From NCBI GenBank assembly GCA_046596815.1, contig JBKJLU010000197.1, forward strand, positions 1-28,326: DNA of 28,326 bases, written 5' to 3'. Source of the DNA: Acidimicrobiales bacterium (GTDB lineage: Bacteria; Actinomycetota; Acidimicrobiia; Acidimicrobiales; CADCTF01). A program made the position numbers and the translations under genes. The notes under the pieces are model-generated. The model did no database searches and was not told the origin of the DNA. It saw only the letters and a program-made list of their open reading frames with translations. Within the stretch, counting starts at the first letter, position 1. Each line of letters starts with the position of its first letter. Positions 2 to 27,565 of this stretch are shown here, piece by piece.

Positions 2-997
2 GCGTGGCAGGCCGACGGCGCCCGCACCCCCGCAGCCTGGTTGACGGCCCGATGCCATCTCCCCGCAACCGAAGCGAAACGGCGCTGCCGGTTGGGGCGC
101 GAGTTGCGTCACCTGCCCGCCGCCGAGAAGGCCTGGCTGGCGGGCAACATCACCGGGGCCCACGTCAGCCTTCTCGCCTCTGCTCGCCGACCCCGCACCG
201 AGGAGGCGATGGCCCGCGACGAGCAGTTCCTCGTCGACAACGCCAAATCGCTCTCGTTCAAAGGGTTCGCAAGGACGATCGCCTACTGGTCGCAGCGGGT
301 CGACCCCGACGGCGCCGAGCGATCGGATGCAGAAAAGCGCGACGACCGGAGCATGCACCTCTCCGAGAGCTTCGGCGGTATGTGGTTCGGCAACGTGACC
401 CTCGATCCCGTCTCGGGGGCGATCGTGTCGAAGGAATTGTTGAAGCTCGACAAGGAGATGTTCGAGGCCGACTGGGCCGAGGCTCGCGCCCGGCTCGGAC
501 GGGAGCCCGCCTTCACCGAGTTGGAACGCACGCCGGCCCAACGACGCGCCGACGCACTCGTCGAGATGGCCACACGCTCCGGCACCGCTCCCGAAGGCGG
601 CCGCCGGCCCGAACCCCTCTTCACGGTGCTCGTCGGTTGGGAGACGCTGGCGGGTCCTGTCTGTGAACTCGCCAACGGCACGGTCGTGGCGCCGGGCACC
701 CTCGTACCGTGGCTCGATCGGGCGTGGCTCGAGCGCATCGTCTTCGAGTCACCGTCGAGGGTCCTCGACGTCGGCGTCAAGCGGCGGCTCTTCGAGGGCG
801 CAACTCGACGGGCGGTGCAGGTTCGTGACCGCGAGTGCTTCCACCGCACCTGTGACGAGTCAGCCGACCACTGCCAGATCGACCATGTCATCCCTTGGTC
901 AGCCGATGGACCGACCATCCAGAGCAATGGTCGCGTGGCCTGCGCGGACCACAACCGGCGCCGCCACCAGCGCCCTCCTCCGAATGCACCGCCGTGA
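2..997 (+). CDS. DUF222-domain / HNH endonuclease family protein (REP13E12-like), 5'-truncated by the window edge
   Basis: The frame is open from base 2 (AWQADGARTPAAWLTARCHLP...). It contains RTPAQRRADALVEMA and a C-terminal HNH/zinc region RDRECFHRTC...CQIDHVIPWSADGPTIQSNGRVACADHNRRRH, typical of actinobacterial DUF222-HNH proteins. Confidence 0.85.
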   Translation, partial: AWQADGARTPAAWLTARCHLPATEAKRRCRLGRELRHLPAAEKAWLAGNITGAHVSLLASARRPRTEEAMARDEQFLVDNAKSLSFKGFARTIAYWSQRVDPDGAERSDAEKRDDRSMHLSESFGGMWFGNVTLDPVSGAIVSKELLKLDKEMFEADWAEARARLGREPAFTELERTPAQRRADALVEMATRSGTAPEGGRRPEPLFTVLVGWETLAGPVCELANGTVVAPGTLVPWLDRAWLERIVFESPSRVLDVGVKRRLFEGATRRAVQVRDRECFHRTCDESADHCQIDHVIPWSADGPTIQSNGRVACADHNRRRHQRPPPNAPP

Positions 998-2462: not shown

Positions 2463-3173
2463 TCAGGCCGACCGGCCCGGCCGGCCCGGCCGACTCTTGC
2501 GTTCGAGCTGTGCGACCAAGCGGATCAGGGGCAACGTGATGATCAGATAGGCGATGCCGCCGGCGACCAACGCCGAGCTGTTGGACCGGGCGTTGGCGAA
2601 GTCACGGGCGAACTTGGTGATCTCCTTCCCCCCCGCCAGGGTGCCGAGCACCGCCAGCAACGACGTGTCCTTGAACAGCAGGACGAGTTCGTTGGTCAGC
2701 GGGGGGATGACCAGCCGGAACGCCTGGGGCAGGATCACCTCACGCATCGCCACCCACCGCCGCATCCCAAGCGATCGGGCCGCCTCCATCTGGCCACCGG
2801 GCACACCTTCGATGCCCGCCCGGAAGGTCTCGGCCATGTAGGCCCCGCCGACCAACGACAACGCCAGGCAGCCGGGGAAGTATTTGGGGAAGGGGAACTG
2901 CCAGCCGGTGGCGATGGGGATGCCGAAGCCGATGAAGATGATCGTCAGCAACGCGGGCAGGCCGCGCAGCGTGTCGGTGAAGACGGCGGCTGGCCACCGC
3001 ACCCACCGGGTGCCGCTCAATCGGGCCAACGCCACGAGCAGGCCGATGGTCAGTCCGCCCGTGAAACTGAACAGGGTGAAGACCAGCGTGTTCTTGGCGC
3101 CCTCGGTCAGCAGCTCCGGGAGCATGTCCCGGATGATCGAGAGGTTGAAGAACTCGTCGAAGAAGGTGCTCAG
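2463..3173 (-). CDS. Polar amino-acid ABC transporter permease (HisM/GlnP family)
   Basis: Motifs FTDTLRGLPALL, AYMAETFRAGI, EAA loop EAARSLGM, PPLTNELVLLFKDTSL. The first canonical start is ATG 3125; a CTG at 3173 overlapping the upstream stop is proposed as the real start. Confidence 0.92.
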   Translation of the reverse strand: MSTFFDEFFNLSIIRDMLPELLTEGAKNTLVFTLFSFTGGLTIGLLVALARLSGTRWVRWPAAVFTDTLRGLPALLTIIFIGFGIPIATGWQFPFPKYFPGCLALSLVGGAYMAETFRAGIEGVPGGQMEAARSLGMRRWVAMREVILPQAFRLVIPPLTNELVLLFKDTSLLAVLGTLAGGKEITKFARDFANARSNSSALVAGGIAYLIITLPLIRLVAQLERKSRPGRPGRSA

Positions 3174-3985
3174 TTCGACTTCGCCTGCGCTCCGAGGTAC
3201 TCCTTCAGGATCTGGTCGTAGGTGCCATCGCTGCGCAGTTCAGCCAGCGCAGCGTCGACCTTCTCGAGCAACTTCTTGCTCTGCTTCGGGATGACGAAGC
3301 CGTACGCCTCGGCCTCGTTGGCTTCGAAGGTCTTCGACACGGCCGTATCGCCGGTGGTCTCGGCGTTGTAGGAGTTGATGGGGAAGTCCTGGACGACGCC
3401 GTCGATCTGCTTGGCCTTCAAGGCGGTGAACAGCTCGTCGGCCCCGGTGAACTCCTTCACCTCGACGCCCGCCTTGGCCGCCTCGGCCGTGGCGAACTCG
3501 GCGCCGGTGGTTTCGGACTGCACGCCGATCGTCTTGCCCTTGAGGCTGGCGAAATCGGTGAACGTGGTTGCGTCCTCCTTGCGCACCAGCAGCGACTGGC
3601 TGATCTCGAAGTAGCCCTCGGAGAAGTTGTTCTCCTTCTTGCGCTCGTCCGTGATCGACACCGACGAGGCGATGAGGTCGCAGTTCCCCGCGGCCAACGC
3701 CGCGAAGATGCCGTCGAAGTCGGTGTCGCGGAAGTCGGCCTCGAGGCCGAGCTTCTCGGCGATGGCCTTGACCAGATCGATGTCGATGCCCTTGACCTCG
3801 CCGTCTTCTTCGTATTCGAACGGGGCGTACGGAATGTCGGAGCAGGCGGTGAGCTTGCCGTCCTCGACGGTGGAGATCTCCGACGTCGACTCCGCTTTGG
3901 GACTGCTCTCCGAGCCGCAGGCGGCGAAGGAGAGGAGGGCGACGAGAGCGAGAGCGAGTGCGGAGCGGCGGGGGGAACGCATCAT
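3170..3985 (-). CDS. Polar amino-acid ABC transporter substrate-binding lipoprotein (PBPb / family 3)
   Basis: ATG 3985 with SD AAGGA. Signal peptide and lipobox (LLSFAACG); motifs YAPFEY, GIDIDL, FDGIFAAL, SITDERK, GVQSETTG, GTYDQI. Confidence 0.92.
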   Translation of the reverse strand: MMRSPRRSALALALVALLSFAACGSESSPKAESTSEISTVEDGKLTACSDIPYAPFEYEEDGEVKGIDIDLVKAIAEKLGLEADFRDTDFDGIFAALAAGNCDLIASSVSITDERKKENNFSEGYFEISQSLLVRKEDATTFTDFASLKGKTIGVQSETTGAEFATAEAAKAGVEVKEFTGADELFTALKAKQIDGVVQDFPINSYNAETTGDTAVSKTFEANEAEAYGFVIPKQSKKLLEKVDAALAELRSDGTYDQILKEYLGAQAKSN

Positions 3986-4713
3986 GGTTGGCTTCCTTCG
4001 GAGAAGAGGTCGAGTTGGTCGGGGTCGGTACGCGGCGGTCGGGGAAGGCCCCAGACCAGGTGATCCATGAACACCCAGGAACGACGATGTATCGACGTCG
4101 GTCCGTAGGCCCGAAGCGCCGACTTGTGGCGAGGACACGGATAGCCCTTGTTGAGCTCGAAGTCGTAGGCGGGAAAGTGGGGCGCTTCTTCGCGCATCAT
4201 CCGGTCACGCGTCACCTTGGCGAGAATCGAGGCGGCGGCGATCGAGAGACACGTGGCGTCTCCCTTGATGACCCGTTGCGTCGTGCCGCGACCGATGAAA
4301 TCCCAGTTGCCGTCGACGAGCACCTTGTCGGGCTCGCCGACGCCCAGTCCGTCGATGGCACGGCGGGCGGCAAGTTTTTGCGCAGCGGTCATGCCGAGGT
4401 CGTCGCACTCCTGCTGCGACGCATGGCCCACCGACCAGGCCTGGCACCAACCGGCCACGCGCTCGAAGAGCTGTTCGCGCTCTCGCTCGGTGAGCATCTT
4501 CGAATCGCGGACCTTGTAGACCCGCCGATCCTTTGGCAGCACGGCGGCGCCCACGGTCAGCGGGCCCGCCCACGCACCCCGCCCGACCTCATCGACCCCG
4601 ACGACGACGTCGTGTCCCGAAGCCCACAGCGCCCGCTCGAGCACGAGGGAAGGAGCGTCCTTCTTCGTGGGCTTGCGCTTCATCCGCAGTGCGGGTGGCG
4701 AGCCACCTCTCAC
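3982..4713 (-). CDS. rnhB: Ribonuclease HII
   Basis: Motifs VGVDEVGRGAWAGP, VRDSKML, VLVDGN, KGDATCLSIAAASILAKVTRD, NKGYP; the acidic catalytic residues are present. Start is GTG 4713 or ATG 4683. The stop overlaps the next ATG (ATGA). Confidence 0.95.
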   Translation of the reverse strand: MRGGSPPALRMKRKPTKKDAPSLVLERALWASGHDVVVGVDEVGRGAWAGPLTVGAAVLPKDRRVYKVRDSKMLTEREREQLFERVAGWCQAWSVGHASQQECDDLGMTAAQKLAARRAIDGLGVGEPDKVLVDGNWDFIGRGTTQRVIKGDATCLSIAAASILAKVTRDRMMREEAPHFPAYDFELNKGYPCPRHKSALRAYGPTSIHRRSWVFMDHLVWGLPRPPRTDPDQLDLFSEGSQP

Positions 4714-4741: not shown

Positions 4742-5782
4742 TTACCGGCTCGCTCCTTCGCAGAGTTCGACCGCCGCTTCGCCCTCGATCACGCGACCGA
4801 TCACGACGAAGCCAGCGTGGGCAGCCAGGTGCTCGGCGGCAGCCGGCGACACCGACGCCAGTAATCCGCCCGAGGTCTGGGGGTCGTAGGCGATGGCCTC
4901 GAGCGCCTCGGAGACCGTCGTGCGAACTCGGCCCTCGAGGTGCGTGCGGTTCCGGGGATCGCCGCCCGTGCGGGTGCCACCCTCGGCGAGGCGCAGCGCA
5001 CCCGGATAGAGCGGGAGCAAGTCCGCTTCGAAGCGCAACACCGAGCCGGAGCGCTCGGCCATTTCCCAGCCATGGCCGAGGAGCCCGAAGCCGGTCACAT
5101 CGGTGACGGCATGGGGCGCCTCGCCGCCCGGGAGATTGGCCAGAGCCTCGGCGGCCGCCTTGTTCAACGTGCGCATGCGCAGGATGGCGGTTGCCTTCTC
5201 TTCTTCGGTGCCAGCGGCGAGGACGATGCCCGTACCCAACGGCTTCGAGAGCACGAGCACGTCGCCGGGGAGGGCGCCCGCCTTGGTCCAGATGCGGTCG
5301 GGATGGACGAGTCCCTGGACGGCCAACCCGAAGATCGGCTCCTCGGATCGGATGGTGTGGCCGCCGCCGACGGCGCCGCCGGCTTCGGCGACGACCTGCC
5401 CGGCGGCCGTGAGGATGGCCTCGATAGCGGCGATCGGCATCCGCTCAGGAAACGCGGAGATGTTGAGGGCGAGCACGACGCGCGCTCCCATGGCGAACAC
5501 GTCGCTACAGGCGTTGGCGGCGGCGATGGCGCCGAAGTCGCCGGGATCATCGACGAGGGGAGGAAAGAAGTCGGTGGTCGACACCATGGCCAGGTCGTCG
5601 GCCACCCGATACACGGCGGCGTCGTCGAATGGCGCAAGTCCTACCAAAAGCGCTGGATCCGTGGATGCGGCCAGGTCACGCACCAGCGCCGATAGGGGCG
5701 CGGCGCCCCACTTGGCCGCGCATCCGCCGCAGGCCGTCCACTCCGTCAGACGGATGGGGTCGGAGGTGATCGAGTCGGCCAT
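4742..5782 (-). CDS. selD: Selenide, water dikinase (selenophosphate synthetase), Cys-type
   Basis: ATG 5782. N-terminal LTEWTACGGCAAK (catalytic Cys and Lys); DDAAVY, STTDFFPPLVDDP, AAANACSDVFAMG, GGHTI, LSKPLGTG, TDVTGFGLLGH, DPQTSGGLL. Confidence 0.95.
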   Translation of the reverse strand: MADSITSDPIRLTEWTACGGCAAKWGAAPLSALVRDLAASTDPALLVGLAPFDDAAVYRVADDLAMVSTTDFFPPLVDDPGDFGAIAAANACSDVFAMGARVVLALNISAFPERMPIAAIEAILTAAGQVVAEAGGAVGGGHTIRSEEPIFGLAVQGLVHPDRIWTKAGALPGDVLVLSKPLGTGIVLAAGTEEEKATAILRMRTLNKAAAEALANLPGGEAPHAVTDVTGFGLLGHGWEMAERSGSVLRFEADLLPLYPGALRLAEGGTRTGGDPRNRTHLEGRVRTTVSEALEAIAYDPQTSGGLLASVSPAAAEHLAAHAGFVVIGRVIEGEAAVELCEGASR

Positions 5783-25345: not shown

Positions 25346-27565
25346 CTAGCGGCCGCCGAAGAGTCGCGGAAACCGTCGGCGCTTTGGGAGATCATCCTCG
25401 TCGATCGAGGACTCGCTCGATGCCGGGTCGACGGGCTCGATCGCCGAGGTCGTCGGACGCACCGCCGGGACGGACCGGTCACGGCTTCGCGAGCCGATCA
25501 GCGGCTCGCGATCGACGGGGAGGCGCACCGGGTCGACGGCCCGTAGTTGTGGCACGGGCGCCGGTGCGATCGCCTCGATCTTCGCCGCCGCGAGATCCCT
25601 TCTGGCCGGCTCGAAATCGGCAGTGATCTGACGACGCCGCTCCTCGGCCTCTGCTTCCGCTCGGGCCAGGGTGGAGTCCGCTTCCGTCGTCGCCTCCTGA
25701 AGGCGCCGGGCGAAGATCGACGCCGCCTCCGCCTTCACGACGTTCGCTTCGTCGATCGCCGTCGCCGTGAGCGTCTCCATCTCTTGCTCGATCTCCTGGC
25801 GGCGAGCGGCCGCTGCGGCTACGGCCCCGGAACGGATCTCCTCGGCCTGGCGCTCGGCCGCTTGCAGCAGATCGTCGGCCTGCTCCTGTGCAGCCGCCAG
25901 GATCACCTCGGTCTCGGCGGCGATGCGGTGGTCGGCATCCTCCTGCATGCGCTCGACCTGCGCCCGGCCGTCCTCGACGATCTCCGCTCCGAGACGCCGG
26001 CCCTCCTCGATCGCCTCGGAACGCAAGCGCTCGGCTGTCTCATGCGCCTCGGCCATGAGGGTGTCGGCGCGACGTTGGGCGTCGGCCAGCAGCAACTCGG
26101 TTTCGGCCACCGCCGCGGCCCGCTCGGCCTCCCGCGCGGCGGCACCTTCCCGATGAATTCGCTCGACTTCAACCTCGGCCTGGGCCGCGGCTTCGGCGAC
26201 GATGCGGTGAGCCTCATCGTGGGCGGCGGCGGCGGCTCCGGCAACGACGGCCCGCCGCTCCTCGGCCGCCTCGTCGAGCCACTCCTCGGCCTCCGCCGCA
26301 GCCTCGGCCAGGACGGCGGCGCGATCCTCGACCAGTGCCGCCCGGTCGCGTTCGAGCTGGGCTTCGAGCGCGGCCAAGCGATCGGCGAACGAGCGACGAT
26401 GTTCCTCGTTGTCCCGCAGGAGCGCGGCGCGGGCCGCAGCCACCTCGGCCTCATCCCTGCGGCGTCGCTCGGCCGCTTGCCCGTCGAGCTCACGTTGGCG
26501 TTCGCGCAATGTTTCGACCGCCGCGTTGTGTTCCATCTCGAGTCGGGCGGCGCGCTCGGCCTGTTCGCGTTCGAGCGTTTGTCTGCGCTGATCGACGTCG
26601 GCCAGTGCCGCGTCCTTGCGGGCCGACAACTCGGATTCGAGGGTGCGCCGCTGCTCCTCGATGTCGGCCATTGCCTCGACGTGCTGGCGTTCCAAGACGG
26701 CGGCCTGCTCGGCCAGCCGCCGATCGAGCGCCTGTTCTCGGCTGGTGACCTCGGACAGTGCCGCCGCCAGCCGATCCGAGGCGTGTTCCTCGACCTCTCG
26801 ACGGCGTTGCTCCAGGGCGGCGAGCGCGGCTTCTCGTTCGGCCCCAAGGGCATCGGCCCGCTGCTCGACGCGGCGATGGTGCTCGGCGACCTCGGCCATC
26901 GAGATCGCGTGCTCGTTCTGGAGCGCCTCCCGTTCGCGTTCGAGTTCGGACCTGGCTCGCTTCGCCTCGCCTCGCAGGTCGACCCGGATCCGGGCGATCT
27001 GCTCCTCGGCCTCGGCGACGAAGGCCGCCGCTTCGACTTGGCCCCGCTGGCGGGCCGCCTCCACTTCCCGCTCCGCCGCTTCGGCGGCCGCGGTTGCGGC
27101 CTCCGCACGGATGCGATGGGCCTCGACCTCGGCGATGCCCCGAACCCGCTCGGCCATGGCCTCTGCATCGGCCCGCACCCGAACCGTGGCCTCGTCGGCC
27201 CGGCGGCGGATGAGCACGGCCTCGTCCTCGGCCTTCGCCTGGAGGTGGCGGCGCTGGTGCTCGGCCTCCATTCGCTGACGGACGAGGTCGGCGCCGGTTT
27301 CCCGCTCGACGCGGCGGATCTCTTCCTGCCTCCGGCGGACGTCGTCGAGCAGCCGCGCCCGCTCGGTTGCGGCCGCCGCCATGGCCCGCTGGTACAGCTC
27401 GGAGCCCACGACCGACGCCTCGCCGACACCGCTTGTCGGAGAAGTCATGTCGGCCTTCGGCCGCAAGGCTCGACGCCGCGACGCATCATCGCGGCGCTCG
27501 CCGTCGAACAGTTCGAGTTGTGAGTCCTCGCCCGACTTGTCAGGCGGTTCCTCGTCGTTGGACAC
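25346..27565 (-). CDS. Large coiled-coil protein (739 aa; Scy/DivIVA-like composition)
   Basis: About 600 aa of A/E/R-rich helical repeats flanked by disordered ends. It begins 17 nt after the PilB/GspE stop, and its codon usage is that of the coding strand. Confidence 0.8.
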   Translation of the reverse strand: MSNDEEPPDKSGEDSQLELFDGERRDDASRRRALRPKADMTSPTSGVGEASVVGSELYQRAMAAAATERARLLDDVRRRQEEIRRVERETGADLVRQRMEAEHQRRHLQAKAEDEAVLIRRRADEATVRVRADAEAMAERVRGIAEVEAHRIRAEAATAAAEAAEREVEAARQRGQVEAAAFVAEAEEQIARIRVDLRGEAKRARSELEREREALQNEHAISMAEVAEHHRRVEQRADALGAEREAALAALEQRRREVEEHASDRLAAALSEVTSREQALDRRLAEQAAVLERQHVEAMADIEEQRRTLESELSARKDAALADVDQRRQTLEREQAERAARLEMEHNAAVETLRERQRELDGQAAERRRRDEAEVAAARAALLRDNEEHRRSFADRLAALEAQLERDRAALVEDRAAVLAEAAAEAEEWLDEAAEERRAVVAGAAAAAHDEAHRIVAEAAAQAEVEVERIHREGAAAREAERAAAVAETELLLADAQRRADTLMAEAHETAERLRSEAIEEGRRLGAEIVEDGRAQVERMQEDADHRIAAETEVILAAAQEQADDLLQAAERQAEEIRSGAVAAAAARRQEIEQEMETLTATAIDEANVVKAEAASIFARRLQEATTEADSTLARAEAEAEERRRQITADFEPARRDLAAAKIEAIAPAPVPQLRAVDPVRLPVDREPLIGSRSRDRSVPAVRPTTSAIEPVDPASSESSIDEDDLPKRRRFPRLFGGR

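What the first reader, a model, noticed from the sequence alone, without database searches (positions are those of the whole stretch)
3982..4030. Bacterial RNase HII ending in a canonical beta-clamp-binding motif (QLDLF)
After the catalytic domain a flexible tail reads ...RTDPD-QLDLF-SEGSQP (QLDLF at 4003-4017), a perfect match to the bacterial sliding-clamp motif QL[S/D]LF. Archaeal RNase HII and eukaryotic RNase H2 dock on PCNA through a C-terminal PIP box. I do not know an equivalent for bacterial RNase HII. This suggests clamp-coupled ribonucleotide excision repair in this lineage. Caveat: the tail overlaps the SD of the next gene, though the motif itself lies upstream of that SD.
Basis: partly seen in the sequence, partly recalled or inferred. 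Interest (0 to 1): 0.7.

Follow-up and report, generated by a model that had tools for sequence, protein, structure and literature searches.

The report
Clamp-docking tail on bacterial RNase HII
The enzyme that cuts stray RNA letters out of DNA ends, in this bacterium and in roughly a third of a cross-phylum sample of bacterial species (but not in the E. coli or Bacillus copies read here), in the short peptide that replication proteins use to grip the sliding clamp, so it probably works from the clamp as its archaeal and human counterparts do; binding has not been measured.

Summary
rnhB (3982-4713, minus strand) encodes an intact RNase HII of an Acidimicrobiales bacterium. Its flexible tail carries QLDLF at 4003-4017; QL[SD]LF occurs in only 2 of 2678 predicted proteins of the genome. 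The tail varies, yet the motif persists: 104/117 close homologues (shuffled 12), 48/86 Acidimicrobiia genomes (6), 30/91 RNase HII from a cross-phylum sample (5; neighbouring genes 5%). Orthologues alternate between the five- and six-residue clamp motifs, and some end in the NucS-like Gln-less xxLF. Streptomyces, Coriobacteriia, Bacteroidota, Verrucomicrobiota and Gemmatimonadota carry it. E. coli, Bacillus velezensis, Nocardia and 27/28 Pseudomonadota do not. Downstream genes differ between orthologues, so the Shine-Dalgarno overlap is not the cause. A model places QLDLF in the canonical pocket of the genome's own DnaN (0.67, best control 0.02; may be recalled from solved complexes). I found no report of bacterial RNase HII binding DnaN; a 2024 review says the E. 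coli enzyme does not. Binding about 0.88; functional clamp-coupled repair about 0.65. First readers in this scan noted similar tails in three other genomes, unchecked.

The parts
3982..4713 (-). rnhB, RNase HII, 243 aa from GTG 4713 (233 aa if ATG 4683 is the start); the only match to this protein in the 78%-complete genome
4072..4602 (-). RNase HII catalytic domain (aa 38-214) with acidic residues D41, E42, D134, D152, the GRG motif (44-46) and the junction-sensing Tyr191
   Evidence: Pfam; invariant or near-invariant columns; residue check; 7UWE alignment
4051..4080 (-). Conserved extension after the HRR motif (aa 212-221) with a short helix at 214-218; typical of Acidimicrobiia, with a similar stretch in Streptomyces
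4018..4050 (-). Pro/Arg-rich variable linker (aa 222-232), no predicted secondary structure, pLDDT about 65
4003..4017 (-). Beta-clamp-binding motif QLDLF (aa 233-237)
   Evidence: Q233 and L236 at least 90% conserved among 76 homologues (I picked these rows mostly from motif-bearing hits); docks in the DnaN pocket in the model
3982..4002 (-). Last six codons and stop of rnhB; they hold the Shine-Dalgarno-like GAAGGAAG (3999-3992) and the ATGA overlap of the next gene; not conserved
3170..3985 (-). Downstream amino-acid ABC transporter substrate-binding lipoprotein; neighbour only, found in 2 of about 55 loci with wide flanks
4742..5782 (-). Upstream selD (Cys-type selenophosphate synthetase); neighbour only, found in 3 of about 55 loci with wide flanks

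Best explanation
The C-terminal QLDLF is a real clamp-binding motif. It tethers RNase HII, through a flexible linker, to the peptide pocket of the DnaN sliding clamp. Shown: the enzyme is an intact RNase HII; the motif is selected at protein level in an otherwise free tail; the genome's DnaN keeps the pocket. Inferred: Gln enters subsite II and Leu-Phe subsite I; the enzyme rides clamps at or left behind the fork, nicks 5' of misincorporated ribonucleotides (and perhaps primer junctions) on new DNA, and hands the nick to Pol I and ligase. This would be replication-coupled ribonucleotide excision repair, the bacterial counterpart of the PIP box-PCNA link in archaea and eukaryotes. My odds: binding about 0.88; binding plus a functional role in repair about 0.65.
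For: Rarity: 2/2678 proteins carry QL[SD]LF. Conservation against tail shuffles: 104/117 vs mean 12.4; 48/86 vs 6.2, 19/76 vs 2.6, 30/91 vs 5.4; neighbouring ORFs 29/583 vs RNase HII 29/91 in the last 30 aa. Spacing: of 85 L-F/W pairs in tails, 49 have Gln exactly three residues before, at most 5 at any other distance. Five- and six-residue forms, the two known clamp-motif classes (PMC11139829), alternate at least 21 times on a tree built without the tail. Gln-less ...GRLF tails resemble the tested NucS motif ELTLF (PMC6159515), and this genome's NucS ends DLKLF. Synonymous codons, distance to the stop (0-17 aa) and downstream genes all vary. The tail is unstructured in the AlphaFold2 model. 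DnaN pocket residues are conserved in the class. Complex model: score 0.67, best of 3 controls 0.02; the mark was reached by 58 of 80 solved and 2 of 110 mismatched pairs; runs agree in at least 84% of contacts, partner pLDDT at least 47; interface is tail 230-237 on DnaN 177-182, 247-252, 325, 349-351, 365-372 (likely helped by solved clamp-peptide structures). A bare QLDLF peptide binds the E. coli clamp at KD 0.103 uM (bioRxiv 10.64898/2026.05.27.728225).
Against: No binding or genetic data. The motif is absent in many lineages (E. coli, B. velezensis, Nocardia, 27/28 Pseudomonadota, 12/12 Bacillota, 21/86 Acidimicrobiia), so RNase HII works without it. The PIP box of yeast RNase H2 is dispensable for repair in vitro (PMC13492167), so docking need not matter much. 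E. coli RNase HII is reported to ride RNA polymerase instead (PMC11253446). The model pass may be memory. The search pattern was widened after seeing the tails, though controls use the same pattern, and related genomes are not independent. Motif-like strings also occur in unrelated proteins (QLELF in the coiled-coil protein at 25346-27565).
Confidence: 0.65

Rival explanations
1. The tail binds DnaN, but mainly for Okazaki-primer processing, fork-associated RNA-DNA hybrid removal or simple local concentration; single-ribonucleotide repair goes mostly by diffusion or with RNA polymerase.
For: PCNA stimulates archaeal RNase HII on both primers and single rNMPs (PMC3089482). RNase HII can cut primer junctions (PMC12724664). 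E. coli repair is transcription-coupled. Frequent gain or loss (at least 36 changes among 247 rows) suggests a modest benefit.
Against: The genome also encodes an RNase H type 1 protein, which could handle primers and R-loops. The junction-sensing GRG and Tyr module is intact. No direct test separates the substrates.
Confidence: 0.22
2. The motif is selected for another partner or role: folding back on the enzyme, an SSB-tail-like or RNA polymerase contact, or a protease tag.
For: Some six-residue forms end in ...LPF, like SSB tails (own knowledge). Many forms are near the C-terminus and hydrophobic.
Against: Fixed Gln spacing, interchange of the two clamp-motif classes, up to 17 residues after the motif in the class sample, and no packing on the enzyme in the monomer model. 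With DnaN replaced by an unrelated protein the model scored 0.00.
Confidence: 0.1
3. Chance match, or a by-product of the overlapping ribosome-binding site of the next gene.
For: The last codons overlap the next gene's start signals. The wide pattern hits 3-5% of ordinary C-termini.
Against: Observed counts exceed every shuffle in the large sets. The downstream ABC gene is present in only 2 of about 55 loci. Codons vary synonymously and the motif lies upstream of the SD.
Confidence: 0.03

Closest known systems
Archaeal RNase HII-PCNA (Archaeoglobus fulgidus, PDB 3P83; Bubeck 2011, PMC3089482)
   Same: Monomeric type 2 RNase H with a C-terminal clamp peptide on a flexible hinge; expected role on new DNA.
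   Different: PIP box and trimeric PCNA there; bacterial five- or six-residue motif and dimeric DnaN here. The linker here is longer and variable. Binding and stimulation are shown there, not here.
Eukaryotic RNase H2 (PIP box on RNASEH2B)
   Same: Clamp tether that localises the enzyme to replication sites.
   Different: Heterotrimer with the motif on an accessory subunit; here the motif is on the catalytic chain.
Bacterial clamp-binding motifs QL[S/D]LF and QxxLxL/F (Pol II, III, IV, V, Hda, MutS; review PMC11139829)
   Same: Exact consensus match, in a disordered C-terminal tail, with the same predicted pocket.
   Different: RNase HII is not mentioned in that review or in PMC9690074.
Actinobacterial NucS/EndoMS (C-terminal ELTLF; PMC6159515) and Mycobacteriales Pol I (QLSLL; bioRxiv 10.64898/2026.09.19.751633)
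   Same: Precedents for lineage-restricted clamp motifs on repair enzymes that E. coli-based work missed. NucS likewise has a PIP box in archaea and a beta-clamp motif in bacteria.
   Different: Different enzymes and substrates; both are experimentally validated.
E. coli RNase HII (PDB 7UWE/7UWH; transcription-coupled repair as reviewed in PMC11253446)
   Same: Same catalytic family (E 2e-33).
   Different: The E. coli chain ends shortly after the HRR motif without a clamp motif and is stated not to bind the clamp.

Membership tests
Bacterial RNase HII (rnhB) | Passes the family models | tested here: met
   PF01351 124.8 bits; NF000595 218.9 against cut-off 167
Bacterial RNase HII (rnhB) | Four acidic catalytic residues, GRG and junction-sensing Tyr | tested here: met
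   D41, E42, D134, D152, G44-R45-G46, Y191
Bacterial RNase HII (rnhB) | Cleaves 5' of a single embedded ribonucleotide | not testable with these tools
   needs an enzyme assay
Beta-clamp-binding motif client | Matches Q-phi-x-[LM]-[FL] or the six-residue form | tested here: met
   QLDLF equals the consensus
Beta-clamp-binding motif client | Lies in an accessible, unstructured segment | tested here: met
   no secondary structure after aa 218; pLDDT 65, 63, 50
Beta-clamp-binding motif client | Conserved in orthologues above background | tested here: met
Beta-clamp-binding motif client | Cognate DnaN keeps the canonical pocket | tested here: met
   dnaN at G000:C410; R157, L160, T177, R181, L182, P247, L252, N325, M367, P368, R370 conserved in 29 class members; read as E. 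coli numbering +5 against the list (my mapping, by motif)
Beta-clamp-binding motif client | Peptide occupies subsites I and II | tested here: inconclusive
   the model supports it (0.67 vs 0.02) but may recall solved clamp-peptide complexes
Beta-clamp-binding motif client | Measured, motif-dependent binding to DnaN | not testable with these tools
   needs FP, ITC or pull-down
PIP-box RNase HII/H2 (archaea, eukaryotes) | PIP box Q-x-x-phi-x-x-aromatic-aromatic and a PCNA partner | tested here: not met
   spacing is Q-x-x-L-F and the clamp found is DnaN; it works like this class but is not a member

The most novel reading that the evidence does not exclude
A large, patchy fraction of bacteria (most Acidimicrobiia, Streptomyces, many Coriobacteriia, Bacteroidota, Verrucomicrobiota, Gemmatimonadota) run replication-coupled ribonucleotide excision repair by docking RNase HII on DnaN. 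Clamp tethering of type 2 RNase H would then occur in all three domains, and the clamp-free E. coli and Bacillus enzymes would be only one of two bacterial modes.
Probability: 0.6. Interest if true: 0.82.

Novelty: new variant of a known kind. Interest (0 to 1): 0.72.

Why it matters
A 2024 review contrasts eukaryotic RNase H2, which rides PCNA, with E. coli RNase HII, which does not bind the clamp and is carried by RNA polymerase (PMC11253446); a 2026 review describes the clamp link only for eukaryotes and archaea (PMC13492167). The two model bacteria appear to lack the motif (E. coli and Bacillus velezensis read here), while about a third of a cross-phylum sample has it. If binding holds, this adds a client to the bacterial clamp network and a second way of targeting ribonucleotide repair in bacteria. 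It is cheap to test: one peptide assay, and a 5-6 residue chromosomal deletion in tractable Streptomyces or Bacteroides. It also gives a natural comparison of replication-coupled and transcription-coupled repair, and of five- versus six-residue motif preference across clamps.

Tried and rejected
SD-overlap explanation: rejected. Lineage-specific oddity: rejected, the motif is found across phyla. Functional link to selD or the ABC transporter: not supported, since they are neighbours in only 3 and 2 of about 55 loci; no PafBC-type site upstream of selD here. PIP box: spacing does not fit. DnaE and DinB as in-genome positive controls: both dnaE matches and at least one Y-family match lie at contig ends, so I read no motifs from them; NucS served instead. 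Gain versus loss: the tree is unrooted and poorly resolved, so 36 changes cannot be polarised. Dalrymple 2001 (PMC58780) and Hao 2023 (PMC10515295) were not held, so I could not check whether the original survey lists RnhB, nor test the RNA polymerase interface. Ten full-text searches found no report of the interaction; paywalled papers and patents were not searched. Cluster look-up named only 2 of 10 distant hits. Searches were input slips; one search stopped early and was finished. Genes were called with a home-made hexamer model, so proteome counts are approximate.

Full report
Observation. The minus-strand ORF 3982-4713 encodes a 243-aa protein ending RTDPD-QLDLF-SEGSQP; QLDLF lies at 4017-4003. 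It is RNase HII by Pfam (aa 38-214) and NCBIfam, with D41, E42, D134, D152, GRG and Tyr191 intact. Named close homologues are Acidimicrobiales/Acidimicrobiia, and this is the only match in the 78%-complete genome. The next gene, an ABC substrate-binding lipoprotein, starts at 3985 with an ATGA overlap; its SD-like GAAGGAAG (3999-3992) lies in the codons after the motif.

Is it chance? In 2678 predicted proteins of the genome, QL[SD]LF occurs twice: here and near the end of a small HTH-like protein. Among the best database homologues (72-97% identity) the linker is freely variable, but a Gln followed by Leu-Phe/Trp or Leu-x-Leu/Phe recurs. With one pattern (Q..[LMF][FLWY] or Q..[LFIMV].[LF]) applied to data and controls alike, 104 of 117 tails match against 12.4 in shuffles (max 25). 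I widened this pattern from the published consensus after seeing the tails, and kin are not independent, so these are enrichments, not p-values.

Spread. In 86 genomes of the class, 32 have the five-residue form, 16 the six-residue form, 17 a Gln-less terminal xxLF and 21 none (shuffle mean 6.2). This sample was not an even draw: the 1-Mb low-GC family f18, tail-less in the two copies read, is under-represented. Other Actinomycetota classes give 19/76 (shuffle 2.6). Named examples: Streptomyces QLGFDF, Nonomuraea QETLF, Collinsella ERLF; Nocardia has none. A pattern scan on the N-terminal catalytic motif, blind to the tail, gave a cross-phylum sample: 30 of 91 complete RNase HII match (shuffle 5.4, max 12), against 29 of 583 neighbouring ORFs. 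Matches occur in Bacteroidota (12/16), Verrucomicrobiota (3/3), Gemmatimonadota, Rokubacteria, Chloroflexota, Deinococcota and a few Pseudomonadota, and in 0/12 Bacillota; single weak matches in such a list may be chance. Even draws give Bacteroidota 8/29, Gemmatimonadota 7/19 and Pseudomonadota 1/28. E. coli and Bacillus velezensis end without a motif.

Why a clamp motif and not something else. (i) Spacing: 49 of 85 L-F/W pairs have Gln exactly three residues upstream, at most 5 at any other distance. (ii) The two known classes, Q-phi-x-[LM]-[FL] and Q-phi-x-[LM]-x-[FL] (PMC11139829), replace each other at least 21 times on a tree built from the catalytic core alone (shuffled mean 33). (iii) The Gln-less tails resemble the tested NucS motif ELTLF (PMC6159515), and this genome's NucS ends DLKLF. 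(iv) Codons vary synonymously, 0-17 residues follow the motif, and downstream genes differ; the ABC gene and selD are neighbours in only 2 and 3 of about 55 loci. (v) AlphaFold2 gives a confident core (mean pLDDT 90.5) and no secondary structure after aa 218.

The partner. The genome's dnaN keeps the pocket residues across 29 class members. Folding DnaN with tail aa 212-243 scored 0.67 against a best control of 0.02. The mark was reached by 58 of 80 solved and 2 of 110 mismatched pairs; runs agreed in at least 84% of contacts; partner pLDDT was at least 47. Contacts were tail 230-237 on DnaN 177-182, 247-252, 325, 349-351 and 365-372, which I map by motif to the canonical subsites (E. coli numbering +5). 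Many clamp-peptide structures are solved, so this shows likeness, not binding. Independent of the model, a bare QLDLF peptide binds the E. coli clamp at 0.103 uM (bioRxiv 10.64898/2026.05.27.728225), and QLSLLDD binds the M. tuberculosis clamp at 272 nM (bioRxiv 10.64898/2026.09.19.751633).

Mechanism. Shown: intact enzyme, selected motif on a flexible tail, conserved pocket. Inferred: RNase HII docks on DnaN at or behind the fork, nicks 5' of embedded ribonucleotides in new DNA, and Pol I and ligase finish the repair, as archaeal RNase HII does on PCNA through a hinged PIP box (PMC3089482). I put binding at about 0.88 and a functional role in ribonucleotide repair at about 0.65. The main rival (0.22) is binding that serves primer or hybrid processing, or adds little: the yeast PIP box is dispensable in vitro (PMC13492167), and the motif changes state at least 36 times among 247 sequences (shuffled 78). 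The genome also has a type 1 RNase H. Another partner (0.10) or chance (0.03) fit the spacing and class switching poorly.

Known versus new. [quoted passage not shown] A 2026 RNase HII review gives clamp binding only for eukaryotes and archaea. Two clamp reviews do not mention RNase H. Ten searches found no report. I could not read Dalrymple 2001 or Hao 2023, and paywalled work is not covered, so prior mention cannot be excluded. First readers of this scan noted similar RNase HII tails in three other genomes without follow-up; these are not independent evidence. The protein is a member of RNase HII and a predicted clamp client; it works like the PIP-box RNase H2 enzymes but is not one.

Verdict. 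Real, conserved, widespread and apparently unreported: a new variant of a known kind, directly testable. Interest 0.72.

Noticed in passing
window 25346-27565 (-): 739-aa Ala/Glu/Arg-rich coiled-coil protein with no Pfam hit, downstream of a PilB/GspE-type ATPase fragment; carries QLELF near aa 16 in an acidic N-terminus. Probably a chance match, a reminder that the motif alone is not proof.
   Followed up: partly
G000:C116:3357-3716 (-): The only other QL[SD]LF in the proteome: a 119-aa excisionase-like HTH protein with QLDLF five residues from its end; a possible clamp-docking mobile-element protein.
   Followed up: no
G000:C136:3245-4084 (+): DivIVA-like protein (my reading of its N-terminus) with QFDLF about 20 residues from its C-terminus.
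   Followed up: no
G000:C273:375-1034 (-): NucS/EndoMS ending DLKLF, a Gln-less clamp motif of the actinobacterial type.
   Followed up: partly
window 4742-5782 (-): Cys-type selD directly upstream of rnhB; the pairing recurs in only 2 other loci examined (L002, L010); no PafBC-type site upstream.
   Followed up: partly
L048-L059, L061, L064, L066: A clade of the class whose RNase HII ends in P-x-P-G-R-L-F without the Gln; a natural test of Gln-less clamp binding.
   Followed up: partly
L413, L416-L418, L423, L425, L426: Gemmatimonadota RNase HII with an extra helical C-terminal extension of 50 or more residues; in L423 a QGALF sits between the core and this extension.
   Followed up: no
L341, P0164, P0220, P0253; L288: RNase HII fused to a YraN-like domain in several lineages; L288 is fused to what looks like an RNase HI hybrid-binding domain.
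   Followed up: no
L377, L365 (phylum of G341): GTDB Bacteroidota outside the Bacteroidia-like group mostly have short motif-less tails (for example seven ending ...LGEK or similar), so the motif is patchy within that phylum too.
   Followed up: partly
window 41-997 (+): DUF222-HNH protein, a common actinobacterial mobile-type gene, at the contig start.
   Followed up: no
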